Shown here: piece by piece, positions 35,566-53,198 of the stretch
Position numbering within the stretch: the stretch's first letter is position 1
Layout: the number at the start of each line of letters is the position of its first letter
Assembly: GCF_025526975.1 (NCBI RefSeq)
Contig: NW_026515692.1
Coordinates: forward strand, 310,001-374,000
Direction: 5' to 3'
Origin: Fimicolochytrium jonesii
Lineage: Eukaryota
Length of the DNA: 64,000 nt
Translations under genes and position numbers: made by a program
The notes under the pieces: generated by a model
Seen by the model: the letters and a program-made list of their open reading frames with translations, nothing else
What the model was told of the DNA's origin: nothing
Database searches by the model: none

Positions 35566-38277
35566 ATGGCACTCCACCCACCACCACCAGCAACGGCCAC
35601 CCCTATTCCCACCCACAGCACTGACTACGAGACAACCCACTTCCGTAGCGAGCCCAACTACCTCCACCTAAAAGAGCACTGCCGCGACCACCCCTTGGAC
35701 TTTGACGCGCCGGAACTCGGAAGCGAACATGAGGCCACCCACAACGACTACGAGGAGGAGTACAAGGACGACGCCAACGAGGTGCAAATGGACGACGCGG
35801 GTCGCTACATGGCCGAAGAGGAGTATATGCAGAGCGACGGGCGGATAGACTGTGATGTGATGGAGGAGGATGTGCGGTGGGAGCGACATGGGGATGGGCA
35901 TGGCGACATCTTGGCGAATGGCGTTAACGGCGAGCCCTCCGCATCACATACGATGGTGGTAGACGATACCCATACGATATCCATCAACGACACGGGAAGG
36001 CATATGCAACAGAGAGACGGGGCGATACGGAACCAGCAGAACGACCAGGAGAAGGAAAAGCAGTCCGAAGACAATGTGAAAGCCCGGTTGCTGATCAACC
36101 CCAACAAGGCTGGAACGCAGCATGTGGACAAGGAGCGGATACAGGAGATTATCTATGAGGCTTCAAAGGTATTATCGTAGAGGGTGTTGGCGATTTGGAA
36201 AGTGATTGCTGGATACATTGATGGACCCACGAACCAAATCTTCCCGCAGGGCACACCCTTCTTTTTGGACCAACAACGCCGCGACGCCCTCCTCACCTCC
36301 AAAATAACCCACTACACCCGTCTCGCAACTCACATCCGCTCCCTCCCCTCCCTCACCCGCGAACAATCTTACATCGCCTCCTACACCTCCACCCTCCTCT
36401 CTGCCGCCGCCCTCCAACCCCCGCGAACAATCGTCTGCGTCGACATGGACGCCTTCTACGCCTCGGTAGAGGAACTCGACCAACCCCACCTCAAACACTT
36501 ACCCATGGCCGTCGGCAGCATCGGCATGCTGACAACGGCGAATTACGAGGCCCGCAAATACGGCGTTCGGTCCGCTATGCCAGGATACATCGCCCGTAAA
36601 CTCTGTCCCCGGTTGGTCATCGTCAAACCGAGCTTTGAGAAATATACCCGCGTAAGCACCGTCGTCCGCCAAGTCTTTGCGAAATACGACCCACACTTTG
36701 TATCCATGTCCCTCGACGAAGCCACCCTCGACCTCACGCCTTACCTCACCGCCCATCCTACTCAAACACCCTCGGAAATCGTCCAACAGCTCCGAACCGA
36801 TATATTCACAACAACAGGCCTAACAGCCTCCGCCGGAATCGCCCCGACAAAACCCCTCGCGAAAGTCTGCTCGGACCTCAATAAACCCAACGGGCAGTAC
36901 GTCCTCACACCCGCCGCCGTCCCAGCTTTCGTCGAATCCCTTCAGATCAGAAAAGTACCGGGGATCGGGAGAGTGAATGAACGGATATTGAACGCACTGG
37001 GGATCCGCACGTGTGGGGAGATGAGGAGGGAGTTGGTGTTGATATATAAGCTGTTTTCGCCCATTTTCTTTGCGTTCTGCGCACGGACGGCGCTTGGGTT
37101 GCCGCCATCACCCGCTCCATCGGATGGCGAGAACGCAGGGGAGCGGAAGAGTATTGGAGTGGAACGCACCTTTGCGCCGATCGCAACCCGCGAGGAGATG
37201 TATGCCAAGATCGGGCATCTGGCGAGCCTGCTGGAGGAGGATCTGCGCCAGGCCAACAGGAAAGGGCTGCGTGTCACACTCAAGTTGAAAAGCGCCGACT
37301 TCAGATCCTGGAGTCGGGCAAAGACTCTGGAACGCTTTGTATGGAAACGCGGGGACATCGAACGTGTTGCGAGGGGGTTGTTGGATCGGGAGTGGGAGGC
37401 GATGATGAAGGGGGGAGGAGGAATGAAGTTGAGGTTGATGGGGCTGAGCATGTCGAAACTGGCTGTACGGTCGCTCCATCCCGGGCCTGCCGAGTCGTCG
37501 CCGCACGGAGCCGATGAACAGGCCGAAGGGCGGGAGGGAGATGAGGAGCAGGGAGAGAGCGGGGTGATCAACCGCGCGGTGGGACGGACGACGGCGGGCT
37601 TCTTTGCGCCCATCATACGTGACGCCGACGCGGAACGGAAACGGGAACGCGAGTTTGGGATCGTCAAGTTCCTGGTGCTCGATTCCGAGGTCGACCCACA
37701 TGGAGGTCCGGCGGCCAGACACGGGGATCCTGACGACGACCACGACGACGACGACGCAGCGGAGAACACCACCCGCAACAAAAAACGTAAGTTGGACGCT
37801 GACGAAAACGGAGACTCTGCCACCCACCCGACGTGTCCGGTCTGCGGGAAAGTCTTCCTGTTCCGTGGCCTAAGCAACGGCAAGGGCATGGAAGCACCGG
37901 ATGGGGTTGAGAAAGGCGACGAGGCGGCCGAACGCGCGATGAACGAGCATGTCGGGCGGTGTCTGGACGAGTCGCTCGGTAACCCAAACCATACCCACGA
38001 CCCGCCGTTGAACCCTGATAACCTCGACCCGGTCCCACCCGCGACGAATCCCTCCGCAACCGCTGCAGCGAACCAACCCGAACGCACAGGCATCCGCAAA
38101 TGGGTCGTGTCCACCCCCGCCGCCCCGACGTCGAATACGTCCCCGGCAACACCATCACAGCAGAGCGGGAACGAGGCCACGTCGACATGCCCCGTCTGCG
38201 CCCACCCCTTCCCGGACCCGCGCAACCTGGCGGCGGTGAACGCGCATCTGGATCGCTGTTTGTCCGCGTATACGTGA
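35566..38277 (+). CDS. POLK: DNA polymerase kappa (Y-family, DinB) with two C-terminal UBZ zinc fingers
   Basis: Exons 35566-36168 and 36250-38277. N-clasp NKAG...IQEIIYEASK|GTPFF, IVCVDMDAFYASVE, TANYEARKYGVRSAMPG, SLDEATLDLT, TASAGIAP..LAKVCSDLNKPNGQ, RKSIGVERTF; CPVC...NEHVGRC and CPVC...NAHLDRC. Confidence 0.96.
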
Positions 38278-39819: not shown

Positions 39820-41744
39820 TTAAACCTTCTCACCCATCCAAAAAACACTCATCCCCCCAAAACTCGGCACCCACTCCCTCCACCTCTCCACCCCGCCCAA
39901 CCCGACCGCGCCCCACGTCCTCTCCACCCCGCGCATGAACCCCTTGTACTCCTCCTCGTCCGTGTTCATCTGCTGCACCACCTTCCCCCCCTTCTTGAGG
40001 ATCTTGACCACGTTCGCGTACAGCTCCGCGGTGTACAGCACCTTGGCGCTCTCGGCGGTGTTGTCGGTGCAGTCGATCAGCACGATGTCGAACTGGGAGG
40101 AAAGGGTGTCCATGTGCATGGTGAGGTACGCCGCGGCGTCGGTGTGGTGCCAGGAGACTTTGGGGTGCGTGAAGGAGTTGGAGGCGCCCGCGGGGGCGAA
40201 GAATGTGCGGGTGAGGTTGGTGACGTGCGCGTCAATGTCGATCAGCGTTATGCGGTTGATCAGCGGCGTGTGGTTGTCCAGGAGGTGCGATGCTACCCAG
40301 CCTGTGAGAATGGTGGGATTGATTAGTAAGTGAAAGAAAAGGAGAAGAGCGGGGGGGGGGGGGGGGGGGGAGGGGATTGTGGGTACGTACCATCACCACC
40401 ACCGATCATAAAGATGTTGAGGCCTTCCGAGGGGACTTTGTTTTCGTGGCGGGCGGCCCAGTCGTCTTCATCATCCTCGTCATCTTCAACCACCTTTCCA
40501 TCCACCGTCGTCGTCTTTCCCGCCTCGATCGTCTTCACCTTCTTCATATCAGTAGAAGGGGTGATACGTCGCGGCGCTCCACTCCCCGTGTACCCCTTCA
40601 TGACCCTCCCCACCATCCCCTCCGTATACACGTGATTGTCACTCTCACAGAACTGCACCACGCGGTCAAGCAACATACACCGTCCAAAGCTCTGCGTGTC
40701 GACGATCTCGATGCGTTGGTAAGGGGATGTGACGTCCGCGAGGATCGTGGCGTGGCGGAGGAGGGTGCAGTCGTCGGTGAGGGTGTCTGCGTTGATGCAG
40801 AGGTGGGCAGTGTATGGGACAGAGGGCGGGGAGAGGGCGAGGGTAAAGTCGCGGGCGTGGCCGAGGGTGGGTGGTGGGACGATTTGGGGGACTTGGGTGA
40901 GGGAAGTGGATAAGGAGGAGGATTTGTCGGCGATGATGTGTTGCGGGGTGGGCGTGTCCTTCGTCACATGGTGCATCGTGCCCCTCTCGACGTACGTTTT
41001 GACCGTCTTGCCCGGTTGGAGTAACTTTTCGAAGCGGTTGACAATGTTCCCTGGATCCCCCGCGCCGCAGGTGTAGACGTCGAGGGCGACAAACCTGTTC
41101 TCGGGCCATGTGTGGATACTGACGTGGGATTCGGAGAGGAGGAAGACGGCGGTCATACCCCCACACTCGAATTTATGGGACGAGGATCCGAGGAGGGTCA
41201 TTCCGGCCTCCGTGATGTAGGATTCGATCTCGGAGAAGGATGTGAGGGTCTCGAGGGTTGCCAAGGCCGAGGGGTTGACATCGTGCAGGTCGACGAGGTA
41301 GTGGCGGCCTGCGGGGAGGTGTTGTTGGGTGGAGCCCGCGGGGGATTTGCAGCGGAGGGGTGGGGGTGTGGTTGAACCCCATGTTCCCGAGAGTTGAACG
41401 GGAATCTTGTTATGTGTGCGGATTGTTGTCGGTGGGGTGGTGGATGATTCATCATCTTCATAGTAGGCGTCGCGGAACCGACGAGGGCTTCCGAGGGAGA
41501 TGTAGCCGGTGTCAAAGAGGATGAAGGCGAGGGCCCAGAGACCGAGGTTGAGGAAGAGGAAGAGGTTGAGGAATCCGCGGGAGGAGCCGGTGAGGGAGGC
41601 GAAGGAGAAGGAGCGGCGGCGGGCGAGGAGGTCGCTTGGTCTGCGTTTGGCCGTGTCTGCGTAGGAGGGGAGGTGGTACTTGATGTCGATGTTGTTGTTG
41701 TTGCTGCCGCGGCGGGGGTAGTTGTCTTTTGTCATGTCGGACAT
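39820..41744 (-). CDS. speD-speE: Type II membrane-anchored fusion of bacterial-type (class 1b) S-adenosylmethionine decarboxylase and aminopropyltransferase (spermidine synthase family), about 611 aa
   Basis: Exons 41744..40391 and 40301..39820. Signal anchor FLNLFLFLNLGLWALAFILF after a basic N-tail. SpeD: GRHYLVDL...GMTAVFLLSE/SHVSIHTWPENRFVALDVYTCG, with the pyruvoyl-forming E-S intact. SpeE: SPYQRIEIVDTQSFGRCMLLDRVVQFCESD, IGGGDG, LIDID, TDA, DIVLIDCTD, VPSFGG. Confidence 0.9.
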
Positions 41745-42117
41745 GACTTCCTAACTTCCTAACGTGGGGAAATGCCAAGAAAGAAGGAGCGAAGGGAATG
41801 CAATAACGACCGGAGGCTGGCTAATGGGTGGGTGGGGGATGGGGGGATGGGGGTGGCGAGAAGAGACACTCTGCTACGTAGGACGAATGCCGCGGAGAGC
41901 AAGAGGGAGAAGAAGGAGGAGGGCGGCGCTTGGCACGGCTCCAGTGGTATATATATCCGCCCGTTTCGAATGGGTTGCTGAGCCTTCCTTCTCTCTTGTC
42001 TCTTCTCTCCAATTCAACTCAATCAGGGATGGGTGGGGGATGGGGATGGGGTCTCAATCGGAGGCACGGGGGCCCGCCGGACATTCTAAACTCTACGAAC
42101 GAGATGCCTCTTTCCCT

Positions 42118-42163
<46 letters not shown>

Positions 42164-42341
42164 CGCACTTACTTAAACACATGGGGCGGCGGGGGGGTCT
42201 CCGATACACACAATGGAATAACGGGGGAGGGGATCATGGAAGACAATCGTGGCATGTGCTCTGGGGAGGGGGATGGGTTGGATTTAGCTCCAGTGCCGTC
42301 CGAGTGCGTGGGGAATAAGGTTACTTGCTACGTACTAGATA

Positions 42342-42372
<31 letters not shown>

Positions 42373-42914
42373 CCCCGTACCAACAGGGAGTCCTCTTGAT
42401 GCATGCTCTTCCCCCAAATAATATAATAGAACATGGGGGGGGGGGGGGGGAGGACGGGGGGGAAACAGTGTTTCGACAGGAAGGCAGGAGTGACAGGATG
42501 GGTGGTGATGGATGAAACGCGTCCACTGACTGCGCCACTTCCCATCGGAGTTCTCTCGTGGCGGCGCGGAGTGAGGGAGGCGTGTTTCGAACAGGCGAAA
42601 CAAACGGGGGTGCGATAATACTATAGGGAGTGCGATGAGAGATGGGGGCGGCTTGTTTGTTTGTTTCTTATTCGGCGCCCCCATTCCCCCAATCCGTCGC
42701 AATAGGGGGTTGTTTATGACTGGGCATTATTGGCTTATGATGGGGAGGGAGGGAAGAGAAAGAGCGAGACGCACGCACAGCACACAGCAACCGGGCAATA
42801 GTATCAAATCAGATCATGATTGCTTGCGGGCAGAGGCAGAATCGGCGGAATCATCAGACTACTTGGCTCAGCACAGCACAGAGAACGAGAACGCCTTCTC
42901 CCACAAACACACAA

Positions 42915-42945
<31 letters not shown>

Positions 42946-43096
42946 GGGGCATAGATATCATTACCCCTCCTCGTTCTACTCCCTCCCTGCTTTACTCCCT
43001 GCATCGTCTTGCATATCTCAAAGCGCTCGCATCCCATCACACTCACATCATCAACATCACATCACAAGTAAAAGCAAAGGAGGAAAAACTGCGAAA
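41745..43096. promoter_or_regulatory. Probable bidirectional promoter of the polyamine-fusion gene pair, with (CT)n/(GA)n microsatellites and a G-tract
   Basis: 1.35 kb between divergent ATGs (41744 and 43097); (CT)n at about 42119-42160 and 42347-42372, G-run about 42435-42450, GA-rich tract about 42914-42945. Confidence 0.5.
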
Positions 43097-45875
43097 ATGA
43101 CAGGCGGCGGAGATATCCACCATCCGCCCTCGTCGCCCTCAAAGCGCCGTGCCAGTACCGTTCCTCTCTTGGGTGGTGTTTCCGGTGCCAGGGTTGCTGA
43201 GTGAGTATATTGGATGCGAATACAGACAGGGACGCAGGAAGCAGATGGGAAGGTTCCACGACGATGATGTGTCGCGGCGCAAGTTGGGAGAGCTCAGCAG
43301 CAGTGATGAGATTTTGATGTGCATTCGGCAAAGCCAGGCGCAGGATGACCTTTAGATCGAGCGAGCGAGCGCAGGGAGGATATCTCGCTCGCCGCAGGAT
43401 GGGCTGAAGGTCGCACATCCAGTTTCTAATCATCATCCCCTTTCCTTCCTCCCTTAGGTCCCACCACTTCCCACCACTAAAACGCCGCTTCACCCGTCTC
43501 CTCACCCTCATCGCCCTCACCCTGTGTCTCACATGGGGCGTCTTCTCCCTCTTTCATAACGCCAGTGCCGGTGCTGCGTCAAAGTGGAGATCGACTGCGA
43601 ATGCGGTAAAGGAGCAGAAGGACGGGCTGATGTTTATTTACGAGCAACCAGCTGTTCCTGCCGTCAAGGTCGAGAAGGCGGAGAACGAGGTGGTCAAGAT
43701 CGTCGAAAAGGTGCAAGTCCCACCCGCGTCACCACCATCCGACATCAAAACGGACACCGACGAAATAACCCTCCACCCGCACCCCGCCCACGGCACCTGC
43801 CTCCACCACCCTTCCTCCGCCCTCCCCCAAACATGCACCGCAACCGACCTCCTCCACGCAGAGCACCTCCTCCACCCCACTCTCCTCATGCACCCCTTCC
43901 CCCGCCGCGTCCTCATCCTCGGCAACCCGCAAGCCTCCATCGTCCGCCAATCTCTCCGATACTTCACACTCGAGAAAATCACATGGGTTAGCGGTGTTGG
44001 GGAGGGAACTGTAAACAAGATCAAGGAGGCGGGACGGGGAATGTGGGAGTTTGATGATATTTTGGGGATGGTTACGCAGGTGCATGGGGTGAGCGTTGAG
44101 GGATACTTGGAGGATAAGATGAAAGATATCGGGAAGGGGTTCGATATCATCATCTTGGACGATGCCTCCACGGCCGTCACGTCCACGCTTGCAGACACTC
44201 TATCAACACATCTCGCACCGGGGGGGTTGGTGGCCGTCTCCACCCCCCAACCCCTCACCTTCCCAGCCTCGGACACATTCAGGAGGACATACACACACCT
44301 CCACCAAACCTTCCCCCACACATACACCGCAACCCTCTACCTCCCCCACCTCTCCTCCCTCACGTCCTACATCCTCGCAACCCACTCCTCCGCCCTCCCC
44401 GACCCATCCCGTCTGAGTCCGCAATACATCGTGGATTGGTTGGAGAGACGGACGACGGTGGGTGAGGAGATGCCCTTGGAGTGGTACGACGAAACAGCCC
44501 ACGTAGGCATGTTCGCCACCCCCGCCTGGATCCGGGACGCCACGGAGAAAATCCACGCCGCCGTGTCCGCTACCCGCAAAGGGGAGGTGAAGCCGGATTA
44601 CGCACCCTTCCCCCAAGAGAGCACGAAACGGATCACGGCCGCCGTGCCCCGGGGCAAGGCGGTGGTGAGGGAGTATCATGGTATGGATCTGGAGGATCAC
44701 GACGCCCACTCTTTGAAGGGAATTGTTAAGAAGGGATTGGAGTTTGCGCATGCGCCGGATGCCAAGGTCAAAGTGGTCGAATATGAACACACGCGGAATC
44801 TGACGATGAGCGACGAGGTTGTCGAACACGACGATGAAGACGACGACGAAGACGAACTCAACCCCGAGAAGAAGAAAAAAAAGACAAAGAGTGTCCACGT
44901 CTCGCAACTCCCCACCAACCGCACGCTTCTTCCCCCCACGACCAAGAAACCGTCTCCCGTCCCAGCTGACGAGGACGAAACCACGGAAACGATCACGGTC
45001 ACGGCGACGTACGAGGGCGGCTCCTTCACACTGACCGTGTTCCCACACTTCAACTACGCCATCGCCCACTCACTCAACTTCAACACAAACGTCCGCATCG
45101 ACGAAATCACCGGCTTCATCTTCGAAGAACTCGACGCCGGCCTCGCTTCAGGGTCCGATATACCCCTAGGCCACGCCCTCGCGCCACTCACCCCGCGCGA
45201 CAACAGGGTGCACCTCCCCAACCTCAACCACTTCACCCTCCCCACCCCCTACCACACGCACCCCAGCGTGACCACCCGCACCTCCCCAACCGCAGGAACA
45301 GGCCAGTTCGCCCGCTCCCCCATCAAAAAGGGCACCGAGATCTTCACGGGCCCCATCGACCCCCTGCTCCTCCCCAGCGCGGCCGTCACCACACCCAAGT
45401 GGTTCCACGCGTTCAGCAACCATATGGCGGAACAGGCCGCGCATAACATATACGTTGCGCCCGGCATACATAGCGTCGACGCGAGCTTCTTTACGAACCA
45501 TAACTGTGACCCGAACCTCGTGTACACGTCGTATGATACGATGATTGCACGGAGGGATATTGCACGGGGAGAGGAACTGACGTACGATTATGGGACGGTC
45601 GATAGCGAGAGGTAAGACATCCCCACCCCCGCGCAAACCTCCCCATCCTAATACCTGATGCCCAACACGTACCATTTTTTCTCTATTTTTTTGTGTTTTT
45701 CAGTGGGAGTAGGTTCAAATGCAAATGCGGCGCACCGACATGCAGGGGCATCGTCACCGGCGGGGACTGGAAGGACGAGGCGTTGGTCGAGCGGCTCGGC
45801 GTCGGCGCGTTCTGGCCCCATGTGCGACGGAAGATCTTGGCGAGGAGACGGACGAAGATGCTGGCCGCGGCGTAG
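43097..45875 (+). CDS. Type II membrane-anchored fusion: degenerate aminopropyltransferase-like domain, degenerate AdoMetDC-like domain, SET/post-SET methyltransferase, about 809 aa
   Basis: Exons 43097-43200, 43458-45611, 45704-45875 (2430 nt, in frame). Anchor KRRFTR-LLTLIALTLCLTWGVFSLF. SpeE-like HPTLLMHPFPRRVLILG, FDIIILD, LAPGGLV, LEWYDETAHVGMFATPAWIR, but GGGxG is replaced by GNPQAS. SpeD-like ITVTATYEGGSFTLTVFPHFNYAIAH lacks ESH. SET: GTGQFARSPIKKG, FTNHNCDPN, ARRDIARGEELTYDY; post-SET FKCKCGAPTCRG. Confidence 0.85.
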
Positions 45876-49143: not shown

Positions 49144-51123
49144 TTACGCCGTCCACAACTTGATGGTCTTGTCAGTGCTTCCACTGAAGACTTGCTTCAG
49201 ATCCGGGGACGTCGCTAGGGCCAAGACTTCATCTCGGTGACCTGGGAACGTGTGCACGTTCTCCGCGGTATCCACGATCCATTCTTTGATGGTTTTGTCA
49301 ACGCCGCCGCTGAACAGCAGTGTACCGTCGCGTGATAGGGCGACGCAGCGGATGCCACTTGGATGGCCAGCGAACTTCTTTACAGAACGGGTGGTAGTGA
49401 CATTCCACTGGATGATGGTATTGTCCCCACTCCCGCTGAAAAGCATGGTCCCATCCTGTGAGAGCGCAATGCCGTTGACTTGGTCCGTGTGACCGGTAAA
49501 GATCTGGAGGGTCTCCCCCGTGGCAACATCCCACTGCCGGATAGTGAAGTCACCACTGGCGCTGAAGAGGTGCCGCCCGTCCGGAGATACTGCGAGCGAA
49601 TACACCTGGCCCGAATGGCCAGTGAAGGTGCCGATGTTTTCTCCCGTCTCCACGGACCACAGCTTGATTGTTTTGTCATAGCTGCCGCTGAAGACGAATC
49701 TCCCGTCAGGCGACAGAACAATAGTGTTGACACCGTCAGAGTGTCCAGGGAATTGTTGAAGGACATTCGCCGTGGAGATGTTCCACTGGATGATGGTGTG
49801 ATCGCCACTGCCGCTAAAGAGCGTTCCATCGGGCGAGAGAGCTAATCCGTTGACCCAGTCGCGATGACCCGCAAAGTTGCGGATTATCTGTCCGGTGATG
49901 TCCCACTGTTTCACGGTATGGTCTCTGCTAGCGCTGAAAAACTGTTTGCCATCTGCGGAGATTGCCATAGTATTGACTCCATCAGTGTGATTAACAAACG
50001 TACGCAGAGAACGATCCGCAACCGCCGTCGGAGTTGGAAGAATTGATGAAGTGGTGGTCGACGAGGTGGTAGGCTGCGTTGTGGACGCCGGAGCCTCGTG
50101 GTTTGATTGCATCAATTTGAAAACACCCGCAGCAATGCCGATGACGATGAGAACGCCAAAGACGGAGAGCGCCAAGTAGCGTCTTGATCTCGGCCAGGTG
50201 CGTACGCTGAACAAGGCGGCGCGGCCATTTTTTCCTTGACGCGTGCCGGTCGTGTTTCCGGGATCTCCTTGGCGTTCCATCCCAGGATTCGAAGCCGTCT
50301 CTATCTGGTCCCCATCGATTGCTACCAACGTATTTGTTGCAGAAGGATTCGTGACGGGTTGATGGGGGACATGCGTGTCCGTCTGTGATGAAAGCTTCGG
50401 GTAAACCGAGACAGGCCTAACAGTTGCGGCAACACCTGATCCCGATGTCGTAGGATTTGCAGGTCGCGCGGGATTCACAATCGGCGCCATCGGGGCCGGT
50501 GAAGCGGGCGCTTCTCGTAATGCTGCTGACTCGGGATCATCGGCACTGCGTGCCTGAGACTTTCCAGGAAACTCAAGGCGTGATGGCTCAGCACTCGTGG
50601 GTCGAAACGTGACGGCTCCACCAGGTAGGCGTTGATCCCCTTCCTCGTCGCCAACCAAAGCCTCACTGTAAGCCGGTGGAAGTGGCGCGAGGGAGTCCAC
50701 ATCGTCGACCGACCTCCTTACTTTGACCAGAAAGTCCAGGCGGGGTTGCTGTGCCGTATCCCTCGGAGCAAGCAAGGTCCACACATCCGCCAACGGGTCA
50801 TCCAGTTCGGTGACGCGAAACATGTCCTGGATGTGGGGAGGACTGCAGGTCAGAGAAACGCGCCTCAGCCGGTCGTCTGTGACGCCAAGCGCATCCTCCT
50901 CGTCGATTCGGTACAACGTAACGTCCGCAGCGGTGTAAGGTGTCTCTGGTCGTCCCCCCGCTCCTGCTGCTACTGCTGCGGAGTTTGAGAACGAAGTTTG
51001 AGCAAACACGAGGCTGCGAAGTTGCGCGACGGTGAATGTAGAAGCGAAATCCGACGGAACTTGCACGGCGAATACCCTCCGAGGATCGTCCCCGTACAGA
51101 AGGCAGAACAGAGTAGCCGCCAT
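49144..51123 (-). CDS. Crinkler(CRN)-type ubiquitin-like N-terminal domain, disordered linker, single TM and 7 WD40 repeats (intronless, 659 aa)
   Basis: The N-terminus TLFCLLYGD...FAVQV...TVAQLRSLV...ADVTLYRI...LDDPL...LDFLVKV resembles the CRN header domain. TM YLALSVFGVLIVIGIAAGVF; seven GH...W[D/N] WD40 repeats at the C-terminus. Confidence 0.85.
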   Translation of the reverse strand: MAATLFCLLYGDDPRRVFAVQVPSDFASTFTVAQLRSLVFAQTSFSNSAAVAAGAGGRPETPYTAADVTLYRIDEEDALGVTDDRLRRVSLTCSPPHIQDMFRVTELDDPLADVWTLLAPRDTAQQPRLDFLVKVRRSVDDVDSLAPLPPAYSEALVGDEEGDQRLPGGAVTFRPTSAEPSRLEFPGKSQARSADDPESAALREAPASPAPMAPIVNPARPANPTTSGSGVAATVRPVSVYPKLSSQTDTHVPHQPVTNPSATNTLVAIDGDQIETASNPGMERQGDPGNTTGTRQGKNGRAALFSVRTWPRSRRYLALSVFGVLIVIGIAAGVFKLMQSNHEAPASTTQPTTSSTTTSSILPTPTAVADRSLRTFVNHTDGVNTMAISADGKQFFSASRDHTVKQWDITGQIIRNFAGHRDWVNGLALSPDGTLFSGSGDHTIIQWNISTANVLQQFPGHSDGVNTIVLSPDGRFVFSGSYDKTIKLWSVETGENIGTFTGHSGQVYSLAVSPDGRHLFSASGDFTIRQWDVATGETLQIFTGHTDQVNGIALSQDGTMLFSGSGDNTIIQWNVTTTRSVKKFAGHPSGIRCVALSRDGTLLFSGGVDKTIKEWIVDTAENVHTFPGHRDEVLALATSPDLKQVFSGSTDKTIKLWTA

Positions 51124-53198
51124 TGCTGCTGCTGCAAATGATTGTGAGTGGGAGGGAACAAACCAAGGCGTACTGTACTAGCCTGTCTTAAATAGGAAGG
51201 TCGCATACGCAAGAGAAGGCGTTGCCGCTGGCGGCACAAGCGGTCGGTTACACGAACCCCCCTCATTGAATAGTATTCATGACCGGACGACATATGTGTG
51301 TAGTAGTGTACAGCTGCATACAGTACCGTACAACCGCCCTTGTGAAGCGCACCGGTTGCCTCTACATGTACAGTACAGTCTGAGTAGGCTGCCAGATATC
51401 AGGTTACGACGGGTTGTTGAGCCTCCGTGTGCAACCCAGAAGTCACCGGCCAGCTGCCGTCAATTTCCAGGACAGGCAGGCCGGCGACTTCTGTTGGTGG
51501 CCATCTCGGCCCAGAGAGTAAACAGCCAACGCCGTCGCCAAGATTGCCAAGAGGCCGACATTGCCTCCGGCATTTTGACAACCTCAGACATGTATGGTTG
51601 ATCTCTTCTGGGGGGGTCATCAGTGCTCTCCCCGTCGTGTGCTGGTGTGGTTGTTGTCAAGTGCTGGGGTTGTGTGGTTGTCAAATTGTACCTGACTGTA
51701 ACTCACGGCATTGTACAGTATACCCAGGTATCTGGCCACCTACTGTATTACATGCCGCTCGAGATCCAAACTGCCAGTCAATACTATAGGCGAAGCGTCG
51801 TGCACGATCTGCTTTAGAGGCGTCAAGGAAAGACAAGTTGTATCATGAACGGGTCCGGGGACAGAGACACAGGTAGGATAACCGGAGCCAACTTCCAAGA
51901 AGTATTGTCGAGTAGGTTAAAGGCAAAACGGAATTTGAACAGACCGTACATGGACGGAATGCCTGGCACGCTGATGCTTTTTCTTAAAGCCGCTCAAAGC
52001 GCTTTGCTGGCACACTGGCAGGATCATCCCTGGAAAGTGAGAACATAGTGCCGATTGCTTTACGGCAATCGGGGAGGGCAAAACGAACTGAGCGCGATGT
52101 TGGCGCCTGGCTGTTGGAGCTTTCCCACGTGAATTCCATTGCGGCGGTCTCAAGAACGTACGGCTTGCCTATTGCGTGAACTCTGATTGCCATGGCCCCC
52201 CGGTTAATGCGTGACAGCCATCCCATCCCCACTGCAGACCCGCTAAATATCGCCCTCTTGGCGGGCTTTGCCAACGTCCCCTCTCCCCGCTCGCACATAA
52301 CGGTTTTCCCAGGGTGCAGCTGACAGTCTCTTCCTCGTCTCGGCTCTACGCGTGTCTCTCAGCCGGTAAGATCAGGAAGAGATCCTCGACTATGCTCGGT
52401 GGTCTTTCTATTCTGGTATCTTCGCCAGAGGAAGAACTCGCCATCTTCCCTGGACATCTTCCCTGGTTATCGTTGAATATATCTGTTTCTTGAAGGTTGT
52501 GAGTGCTGGAAGAGCCTCGAGTGACCAGCAGAAACCAGGGTCCGTAGGCTTGACTCTGTGGTTGTACTCCGTGCCACTTGGGACTTCTGGTTCGATGCAC
52601 AGGTTTGGAACTTGCGAACCCGTTCAGCCCGTTTGTGGCGAGCGGGGAAATGAATGTGGAGGGCTTACAGGGCGTGATGACTCAGCAATTGACGGAATCC
52701 GACAGCGTGGCAGCAAAGCGGGAAGTCAATCGCGAATTGCGCTCAGTGACGCTCGGTGACGCTTGCCATAGGCAAACTTCCTTTGAACGCACTCGTGTGA
52801 AGGAAACAAGCTGTTACCTATGGCCATGAGCTAGCTTTCGCTCCCGCACCCTATAAGGAGGATTGATTCGGTCGCATGCCCTGCGGCCGTGCCCATACGC
52901 ATCAATTACCCATAGAACCTTCAATTTCCAGTAACATCCAAAGAAACAGCAAACGTGGCCAAGTCCTTCTAACTCGGCGCTCCTTCCCACGGCTCACCAG
53001 CGCGGCGTCTCATTTGATTCGAACAGTCAACAGACCCGGTCCATATTTGACAGAGCCTGCAAGGAATGGTCTTGCCGTCACAGGAGGACGGCACAGTGGA
53101 GGAAGGAAAACGCCGGCCCAGCCACCTCACCCCTGGATGTTACAGTCCGCCCTTTGCCCTGTTCCTGATAGGTAAAGGTTGATCAACGGCAGAGAGAT

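What the first reader, a model, noticed from the sequence alone, without database searches (positions are those of the whole stretch)
39820..45875. Divergent pair of membrane-anchored, bacterial-type polyamine fusion genes (SpeD-SpeE and pseudoSpeE-pseudoSpeD-SET): a candidate secretory-pathway long-chain/N-methyl polyamine system in a fungus
Seen: two head-to-head, intron-containing genes 1.35 kb apart, each with a short basic N-tail and a single hydrophobic anchor (type II topology, as in Golgi enzymes). Gene A has a class 1b (prokaryotic-type) AdoMetDC with an intact E/SH pyruvoyl site fused to an aminopropyltransferase with intact GGGDG/DID/DCTD motifs. Gene B has the same two folds in reverse order plus an intact SET/post-SET domain. 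Established: canonical fungal Spe2/Spe3 are separate, soluble, eukaryote-type enzymes. From memory (to be verified), bacterially derived AdoMetDC-aminopropyltransferase fusions with SET domains and secretion signals were proposed by A. J. Michael to make N-methylated long-chain polyamines in diatoms. Inference: a co-regulated two-gene module that makes dcAdoMet, aminopropylates and N-methylates a substrate (a free long-chain polyamine, or lysines/glycans of secreted or wall material) in the secretory lumen. I do not know of this being described in fungi.
Basis: partly seen in the sequence, partly recalled or inferred. Interest (0 to 1): 0.92.

Follow-up and report, generated by a model that had tools for sequence, protein, structure and literature searches.

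The report
Back-to-back fungal membrane polyamine genes
A chytrid fungus carries two back-to-back genes, found together in other chytrids, in blastoclads and in a probable basidiomycete, that encode a membrane-anchored polyamine-building enzyme and a methyltransferase, which likely act inside the secretory pathway to make methylated polyamine chains of the kind so far proposed only for diatom cell walls.

Summary
The window is from the chytrid Fimicolochytrium jonesii.

Gene A (611 aa) has one N-terminal anchor, a class 1b AdoMetDC with all processing residues and an aminopropyltransferase (APT) with intact motifs. Gene B (809 aa) has an anchor, a degenerate APT, an AdoMetDC-fold domain with no pyruvoyl serine (Z 15.6 to 1vr7) and an intact SET domain.

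The pair is conserved. Accessions are consecutive in Spizellomyces, Cladochytrium and the blastoclad Catenaria. It is head-to-head in 3 of 3 metagenome loci of a probable basidiomycete. Conserved cysteine pairs and an enriched N-glycosylation sequon (14 of 21 against 6.7 shuffled) point to a lumenal location.

Most likely A makes dcSAM and aminopropylates an amine acceptor, and B N-methylates it. Product, location, expression and A-B contact are untested.

Ten literature searches found no fungal description, but the key diatom paper (Michael 2011) was not held. This scan noted the same pair earlier in another chytrid genome; the range across phyla is what I add. Verdict: a new variant of the diatom AdoMetDC-APT(-SET) kind.

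The parts
39820..41744 (-). Gene A: anchored class 1b AdoMetDC-aminopropyltransferase fusion, 611 aa; exons 41744-40391 and 40301-39820
41514..41570 (-). Gene A single hydrophobic anchor, residues 59-77
   Evidence: present in 16 of 18 A proteins examined
40971..41318 (-). Gene A AdoMetDC domain (143-258); E205|S206 cleavage site with the Ser codon at 41129-41127; H211, W213, E215, C226
   Evidence: Pfam E 1.9e-26; 1vr7 Z 16.8; residues kept in 22 of 22 homologues, C226 in 21 of 22
39823..40814 (-). Gene A aminopropyltransferase domain (311-611): Q343, Q364, Y373, GGGDGW, D473/D475, D506, DCTD; ends without the spermidine synthase C-terminal tail
40302..40390 (-). Gene A intron, 89 nt, splitting the GGGDG motif
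41745..43096 (.). Divergent intergenic region, 1352 bp, with (CT)n and (GA)n tracts; shared promoter is inferred only
   Evidence: no similarity to the matching regions of L001 or L003
43097..45875 (+). Gene B: anchored pseudo-APT / pseudo-AdoMetDC / SET fusion, 809 aa; exons 43097-43200, 43458-45611, 45704-45875
43498..43554 (+). Gene B single hydrophobic anchor, residues 49-67
43768..44550 (+). Gene B degenerate APT domain of thermospermine-synthase type; conserved Cys149/Cys161 pair
44644..45174 (+). Gene B AdoMetDC-fold domain with Gly in place of the pyruvoyl Ser and no catalytic Cys; loop with N-glycosylation sequon N482
45295..45872 (+). Gene B SET and post-SET domain (NHNCDPN, ELTYDY, CxCGxxxC), interrupted by the intron at 45612-45703

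Best explanation
The two divergently arranged genes encode membrane-anchored proteins that likely work together in the ER or Golgi lumen, where A is predicted to make decarboxylated SAM and add aminopropyl units to an amine acceptor and B's SET domain would N-methylate the product. Shown: gene structure, domains, residue conservation and linkage across fungal lineages. From family knowledge: A would cleave itself at E205|S206, leaving the anchored beta chain holding a pyruvoyl alpha chain that carries the transferase. Inferred: the catalytic domains face the lumen. The acceptor is a polyamine-like chain, free or already attached to secreted or wall material, because A keeps the second Asp of DxxD, which binds the distal amine in spermidine synthases (role recalled). 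B's two degenerate domains likely serve as a scaffold or acceptor-binding module rather than as catalysts. The expected product is an N-methylated oligo-propylamine for the cell surface or a secretory vesicle.
For: A's catalytic residues are kept in 21-22 of 22 homologues, with both folds confirmed. In B, 0 of 21 homologues keep the pyruvoyl Ser, 0 of 17 keep the APT substrate Gln, and 14-15 of 15 keep the SET motifs. Linkage: consecutive accessions in S. punctatus, Cladochytrium and Catenaria. Head-to-head in 4 of 4 loci where I could read the DNA: the window and L001-L003. Lumen: anchors in 16 of 18 A and 13 of 22 B proteins. A Cys pair is kept in 17 of 17 B proteins and at the same two positions in 21-22 of 22 A proteins, where 6 of 6 intact reference APTs have none. 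C132 and C194 of A are lost together in one lineage. A sequon lies in one loop in 14 of 21 B proteins, against a shuffle mean of 6.7 and maximum of 13 in 2000 shuffles. Precedent: diatom AdoMetDC-APT fusions, some with SET, proposed to make and methylate long-chain polyamines. These genes and diatom SET genes peak with wall formation.
Against: No activity, product, localisation or expression data exist. The charge bias across the anchor is weak: the N side is more positive in 10 of 16 A and 4 of 7 B proteins. The 21 B proteins in the sequon count are related, so the count is not independent, and both Spizellomyces proteins lack the sequon. B was identified in only 6 of 11 named genomes that hold A. 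The second Cladochytrium copies of A and B lie on different contigs, and the S. 'palustris' accessions are not consecutive. A paralogous B clade occurs in four named genera where no A was found. In L003, A has His for the catalytic Cys. Four paper hits for a Golgi SAM transporter (listing only) showed none for these fungi, so lumenal SAM supply is unexplained. The diatom enzymes themselves were uncharacterised in the reviews I read.
Confidence: 0.5

Rival explanations
1. Two uncoupled activities: A makes an ordinary triamine or tetraamine (spermidine, spermine or a nor-polyamine) in the secretory pathway, and B methylates lysines of a secreted protein; they are neighbours only because they serve the same stage.
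For: A has the short-tailed AdoMetDC-APT layout of human spermine synthase (3c6k aligned over 145-611). Tested bacterial fusions of that layout make spermidine and spermine or thermospermine. B's SET domain is closest in the PDB to histone lysine methyltransferases. B paralogues exist without a detected A.
Against: A fits neither the spermine nor the thermospermine synthase signature: it has GGGDGW with Asp at motif 3. B keeps two polyamine-enzyme folds across all lineages. Linkage is kept across phyla.
Confidence: 0.22
2. B is mainly a partner subunit of A (prozyme-like or scaffold), pairing through the matching dead domains and setting A's activity or chain length; methylation is secondary.
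For: The two proteins are complementary. A keeps the catalytic residues but lacks the APT C-terminal tail, while B keeps the HP..HP.P and YDG..H.MF elements. All 13 B proteins of the A-linked clade keep the Asp at the end of beta-4. An active-plus-dead SpeD pair has precedent (PMC10407285).
Against: The His needed for proenzyme processing is kept in only 4 of 20 B proteins. If it acts across the dimer (recalled, not checked), a SpeD heterodimer would not process A. SET motifs are strongly kept, so methylation is under selection.
Confidence: 0.13
3. The anchors hold the enzymes on the cytosolic face of an organelle, where SAM and polyamines are plentiful.
For: No topology predictor was available, the charge bias is weak, and it removes the SAM import problem.
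Against: Conserved Cys pairs absent from cytosolic APTs and the enriched sequon. Several homologues have signal-peptide-like N-termini.
Confidence: 0.1
4. A's SpeD domain has become an arginine or ornithine decarboxylase rather than an AdoMetDC.
For: Such neofunctionalised SpeD homologues are widespread, keep the same processing residues and occur in two algae.
Against: It is fused to an APT that needs dcSAM. The AdoMetDC-APT fusions tested in the papers I read had AdoMetDC activity.
Confidence: 0.05

Closest known systems
Diatom AdoMetDC-aminopropyltransferase(-SET) fusions (Michael 2011, seen only through reviews: PMC6356823, PMC3820600, PMC12029483, PMC12803844)
   Same: Class 1b AdoMetDC plus APT fusions, some with SET (diatom cluster with SET in 30% of members). 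Signal peptides and dead-AdoMetDC variants are recalled from that paper.
   Different: Fungal, two genes in a fixed divergent pair rather than a large family (32 fusions in one diatom). B has APT before AdoMetDC and both are degenerate. No silica wall is known to me in these fungi. Common descent with the diatom proteins was not tested.
Animal spermine synthase and bacterial AdoMetDC-spermine synthase fusions
   Same: A has the same domain order and the same short C-terminus.
   Different: A keeps an intact AdoMetDC, has a membrane anchor and conserved Cys pairs, and lacks the spermine synthase signature.
Chloroflexota/plant-type thermospermine synthases
   Same: B's first domain is closest to this class.
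   Different: GGGEG, the substrate Gln and DID are lost; fused to a dead AdoMetDC fold and SET.
Diatom-specific SET methyltransferases (BacSETs)
   Same: SET enzymes linked to wall formation.
   Different: B carries two polyamine-enzyme folds; relationship not tested.
Pyricularia oryzae membrane protein-APT-like fusion
   Same: A fungal membrane protein with an APT-like domain, with homologues in chytrids.
   Different: No AdoMetDC or SET domain described; its APT-like domain made no polyamine and is judged unrelated to polyamine APTs.
Canonical fungal Spe2 / Spe3
   Same: Same two reactions expected for A.
   Different: Class 2 AdoMetDC and soluble spermidine synthase, separate from each other; A is class 1b, fused and anchored.

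Membership tests
Class 1b AdoMetDC (gene A) | Class 1b fold | tested here: met
   1vr7 Z 16.8, rmsd 2.1, 114 aligned; Pfam E 1.9e-26
Class 1b AdoMetDC (gene A) | Ser, His and Cys for self-processing (Thermotoga S63, H68, C83) | tested here: met
   S206, H211 in 22 of 22, C226 in 21 of 22; residues named in PMC10407285
Class 1b AdoMetDC (gene A) | Decarboxylates SAM, not Arg or Orn | not testable with these tools
   needs an assay
Class 1b AdoMetDC (gene B middle domain) | Class 1b fold | tested here: met
   1vr7 Z 15.6, rmsd 2.0, 112 of 120
Class 1b AdoMetDC (gene B middle domain) | Pyruvoyl Ser and catalytic Cys | tested here: not met
   Ser in 0 of 21, Cys in 0 of 20
Aminopropyltransferase (gene A) | Fold plus GGG(D/E)G, ribose-binding acid, DxxD and substrate Gln/Tyr | tested here: met
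   Z 27.5 to 6qmm; motifs in 21-22 of 22
Spermine or thermospermine synthase (gene A) | hhhhGGGD(G/C)G with Glu at motif 3, or hhhhGGGEGA | tested here: not met
   A has GGGDGW and Asp473
Aminopropyltransferase (gene B) | dcSAM-binding and substrate motifs | tested here: not met
   GGG(D/E)G in 0 of 19 (one keeps GTGDG), substrate Gln in 0 of 17; the beta-4 Asp is kept in 13 of 22
SET methyltransferase (gene B) | GxG, NHxCxPN, ELxYDY and post-SET cysteines | tested here: met
   Pfam E 2e-10; NH in 14 of 15, DY in 14 of 15, post-SET Cys in 15 of 15; also in L001 and L003
Diatom AdoMetDC-APT(-SET) fusions | Fused prokaryotic-type AdoMetDC and APT, optional SET | tested here: met
Diatom AdoMetDC-APT(-SET) fusions | Entry into the secretory pathway | tested here: inconclusive
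   anchors, Cys pairs and sequon favour it; no topology predictor or localisation
Diatom AdoMetDC-APT(-SET) fusions | Common descent with the diatom proteins | not tested
   no diatom sequence was retrieved; only cluster-level look-alikes
Diatom AdoMetDC-APT(-SET) fusions | Makes or methylates long-chain polyamines | not testable with these tools
   still proposed, not shown, for diatoms in the texts read
Canonical fungal Spe2/Spe3 | Class 2 AdoMetDC and soluble, unfused spermidine synthase | tested here: not met
   class 1b, fused, anchored

The most novel reading that the evidence does not exclude
Fungi have a two-gene secretory-pathway system that builds N-methylated long-chain polyamines, free or on wall proteins, without making silica. 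It is older than the chytrid-blastoclad split and survives, or arrived as a cassette, in a basidiomycete lineage. It would be the minimal two-protein version of the unsolved diatom machinery and reveal an unrecognised polycationic component of fungal walls or vesicles.
Probability: 0.3. Interest if true: 0.9.

Novelty: new variant of a known kind. Interest (0 to 1): 0.74.

Why it matters
How long-chain, N-methylated polyamines are made is open. The diatom candidates are large families that were still uncharacterised in a December 2025 paper (PMC12803844). A compact two-gene version in culturable fungi makes the proposal directly testable: express A with and without B, or delete them. That paper's fungal section names only budding-yeast spermine synthases as validated and did not mention this family in the parts I read or in term searches. 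A pair kept head-to-head across fungal phyla suggests a function under long selection. Lumenal aminopropylation would be new chemistry for the fungal secretory pathway.

Tried and rejected
No whole genome was held, so housekeeping Spe2/Spe3 and further paralogues in this species were not checked.

No RNA holder was listed; this says nothing on expression.

Complex prediction for A with B was not available, so binding is open.

Sequence profiles did not detect B's AdoMetDC-like domain (hhalign probability 0.8%, hmmsearch no better than reversed controls). Structure and homologues overturned this.

The B model is poor overall (pLDDT 43). Only the middle-domain core (about 70-84) and the APT core are usable; the SET part was not matched in the fold lists shown.

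Scans with A's signature motifs found no relative among 73 candidate stretches in GTDB genomes or 14 in viral contigs; these exact-pattern scans cannot find distant ancestors. A plasmid search with B gave only single-domain matches, 27 records, none covering 80%. The GTDB scan with B returned APT-only matches (80 of 230 shown).

A recent duplication and inversion as the origin of the pair is not favoured by the tree but is not rejected (p 0.40). The tree used 10 A, 10 B and 38 reference rows, chosen mostly as relatives of B, with no diatom or spermine-synthase-type fusions.

A sequon in A (12 of 22) was discounted because it comes almost entirely from one lineage.

No promoter similarity between the window and L001 or L003.

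Michael 2011 and Michael 2016 were not held. No supplements were read; those of PMC12803844 might list such proteins.

Look-ups of earlier findings by sequence and by place were empty.


Full report
Observation. Both genes are present as described. Gene A (minus strand, exons 41744-40391 and 40301-39820) gives 611 aa. Gene B (plus strand, exons 43097-43200, 43458-45611, 45704-45875) gives 809 aa. The start codons are 1352 bp apart. The homologue search returned the same proteins as Fimicolochytrium jonesii gene models; the B model starts 154 codons earlier than the start I prefer. Each protein has a single strong hydrophobic segment near the N-terminus.

Gene A. Pfam finds AdoMet_dc and both spermidine synthase domains. 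A model (pLDDT 68) matches Thermotoga AdoMetDC (Z 16.8) and spermidine synthases (Z up to 27.5). It aligns with human spermine synthase across both domains (316 residues, rmsd 10 because the domains sit differently) and ends about 40 or more residues before canonical spermidine synthases do. E205, S206, H211, W213, E215, Q343, Q364, Y373, GGGDGW, D473, D475, D528 and D531 are kept in 22 of 22 aligned homologues; C226 and D506 in 21 of 22. The motif pattern fits neither the spermine nor the thermospermine synthase signature given in PMC11107197 (passages), so the acceptor cannot be read from sequence.

Gene B. The family profile matches thermospermine synthase best (E 2.7e-39) and SET domains. 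The middle domain was invisible to sequence profiles but has the class 1b AdoMetDC fold (Z 15.6, rmsd 2.0, 112 of 120), and 6 of 6 tested homologues score against Pfam AdoMet_dc. Across the family the pyruvoyl Ser (0 of 21), the AdoMetDC Cys (0 of 20), the APT Gln (0 of 17) and GGG(D/E)G (0 of 19) are gone, while SET motifs are kept in 14-15 of 15. One caveat to 'dead': the beta-4 Asp of the APT is kept in all 13 members of the A-linked clade, so amine or nucleoside binding may remain. Two fragments with shifted ends (P0044, P0049) were left out of some counts, which is why n varies.

Range and linkage. A was found in 11 named genomes, all Chytridiomycota or Blastocladiomycota, plus unnamed records. 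B was identified in 6 of those 11; I looked up names for 10 of about 16 new B homologues. Accessions are consecutive in Spizellomyces punctatus, Cladochytrium replicatum and Catenaria anguillulae. Orientation is not shown for these. A metagenome scan gave 24 loci, 3 of them family members. All three have B head-to-head with A: about 1.3 kb apart in L001 and L002 (where only B's 5' end is on the contig) and about 2.9 kb in L003. These contigs are intron-rich, and a neighbour in L003 resembles clampless-1 proteins, commonest in Basidiomycota (score 0.94), so the host is probably a basidiomycete. No named Dikarya protein appeared in three homologue searches, which suggests either wide loss or transfer of the pair; quick trees leave that lineage unresolved inside both families. 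Against strict coupling: the second Cladochytrium copies are on different contigs. A B-paralogue clade in Thoreauomyces, Gaertneriomyces, Powellomyces and Phlyctochytrium arcticum has no A detected. A in L003 lacks the catalytic Cys.

Compartment. Anchors or signal-like segments occur in 16 of 18 A and 13 of 22 B proteins examined; most misses start inside a catalytic domain. Two prokaryote-type fusions used as controls have none. Both families carry two cysteines at the same APT hairpin positions where 6 of 6 intact references have none. A has a second conserved pair (C316, C326) and a third (C132, C194) lost together in the basidiomycete-like lineage. A loop of B's middle domain holds an N-x-S/T sequon in 14 of 21 proteins against 6.7 expected from shuffles. 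These signs fit an oxidising, glycosylating lumen. They are indirect, the sequences are related, and I could not inspect disulfide geometry.

Origin. In a 58-row APT tree A and B are each one clade (100/100). B sits among thermospermine-synthase-type prokaryotic APTs (99/94 with one unnamed row) and A nearer spermidine-synthase-type rows (92/81). Holding A and B together is not rejected. Intact APT-AdoMetDC (P0137) and APT-SET (P0064, P0075) fusions exist in unnamed records, so B's domain order has precedents. No prokaryotic or viral sequence carried A's signature motifs.

Mechanism. The most economical reading is one lumenal module: A supplies dcSAM and transfers aminopropyl groups, B methylates, and B's degenerate domains hold the complex or the acceptor (0.5). 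Rivals are uncoupled activities (0.22), B as a regulatory partner (0.13), cytosol-facing enzymes (0.10) and a neofunctionalised decarboxylase (0.05). Whether the product is free or bound to wall material is unresolved.

Comparison with the known. The nearest system is the set of diatom AdoMetDC-APT(-SET) fusions, which I saw only through passages of PMC6356823, PMC3820600, PMC12029483, PMC12803844 and bioRxiv 10.1101/2020.11.23.393678 and as Atlas clusters. The source paper was not held; its signal peptides and dead-AdoMetDC variants are my recall. Of PMC12803844 I read parts 1-4 of 9 and term searches: its one mention of chytrids concerns an unrelated membrane protein. PMC10407285 and PMC11107197 were read as passages. 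Ten searches listed no paper describing this fungal pair; most hits were seen as listings only, and the library lacks most subscription papers. The scan's own notes describe the same pair, or gene B, in other chytrid DNA; they are leads, not support.

Verdict. A real, conserved and apparently undescribed fungal gene pair that works like the proposed diatom machinery but is not shown to belong to it or to make its product. New variant of a known kind; interest 0.74.

Noticed in passing
window 36181-38277 (+): Y-family DNA polymerase (IMS, IMS_C, HhH domains with C-terminal zinc fingers), the neighbour on gene A's side; looks unrelated to the pair.
   Followed up: partly
window 49144-51177 (-): 677-aa stop-free frame with an N-terminal region resembling a Crinkler-type ubiquitin-like domain (recalled), one hydrophobic segment and C-terminal WD40-like repeats.
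   Followed up: no
window 42110-42165, 42345-42375, 42915-42950: (CT)n and (GA)n microsatellites within the divergent intergenic region.
   Followed up: no
P0048, P0052, P0055, P0057 and unnamed P0054, P0056, P0059: A second B-like clade in other Spizellomycetales that has also lost the APT beta-4 Asp, with no gene A detected in those genera.
   Followed up: partly
L003:7000-9900: The longer spacer between A and B holds a decayed helicase-like fragment (motif recognised from recall), and A here has His for the catalytic Cys, so this copy may be decaying.
   Followed up: partly
L001:3441-4760 and L002:152-1324: The 1.3-kb spacer is 69% identical over its whole length between two loci whose A genes are 87% identical; may mark shared regulatory sequence.
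   Followed up: partly
P0064, P0075, P0137: Unnamed proteins with an intact APT fused to SET, and an intact APT fused N-terminal to an intact AdoMetDC: possible relatives of B's ancestor.
   Followed up: partly
P0027, P0028: Scenedesmus and Tetradesmus AdoMetDC proteins with APT-like C-terminal remnants fall next to the A family on a long branch.
   Followed up: no
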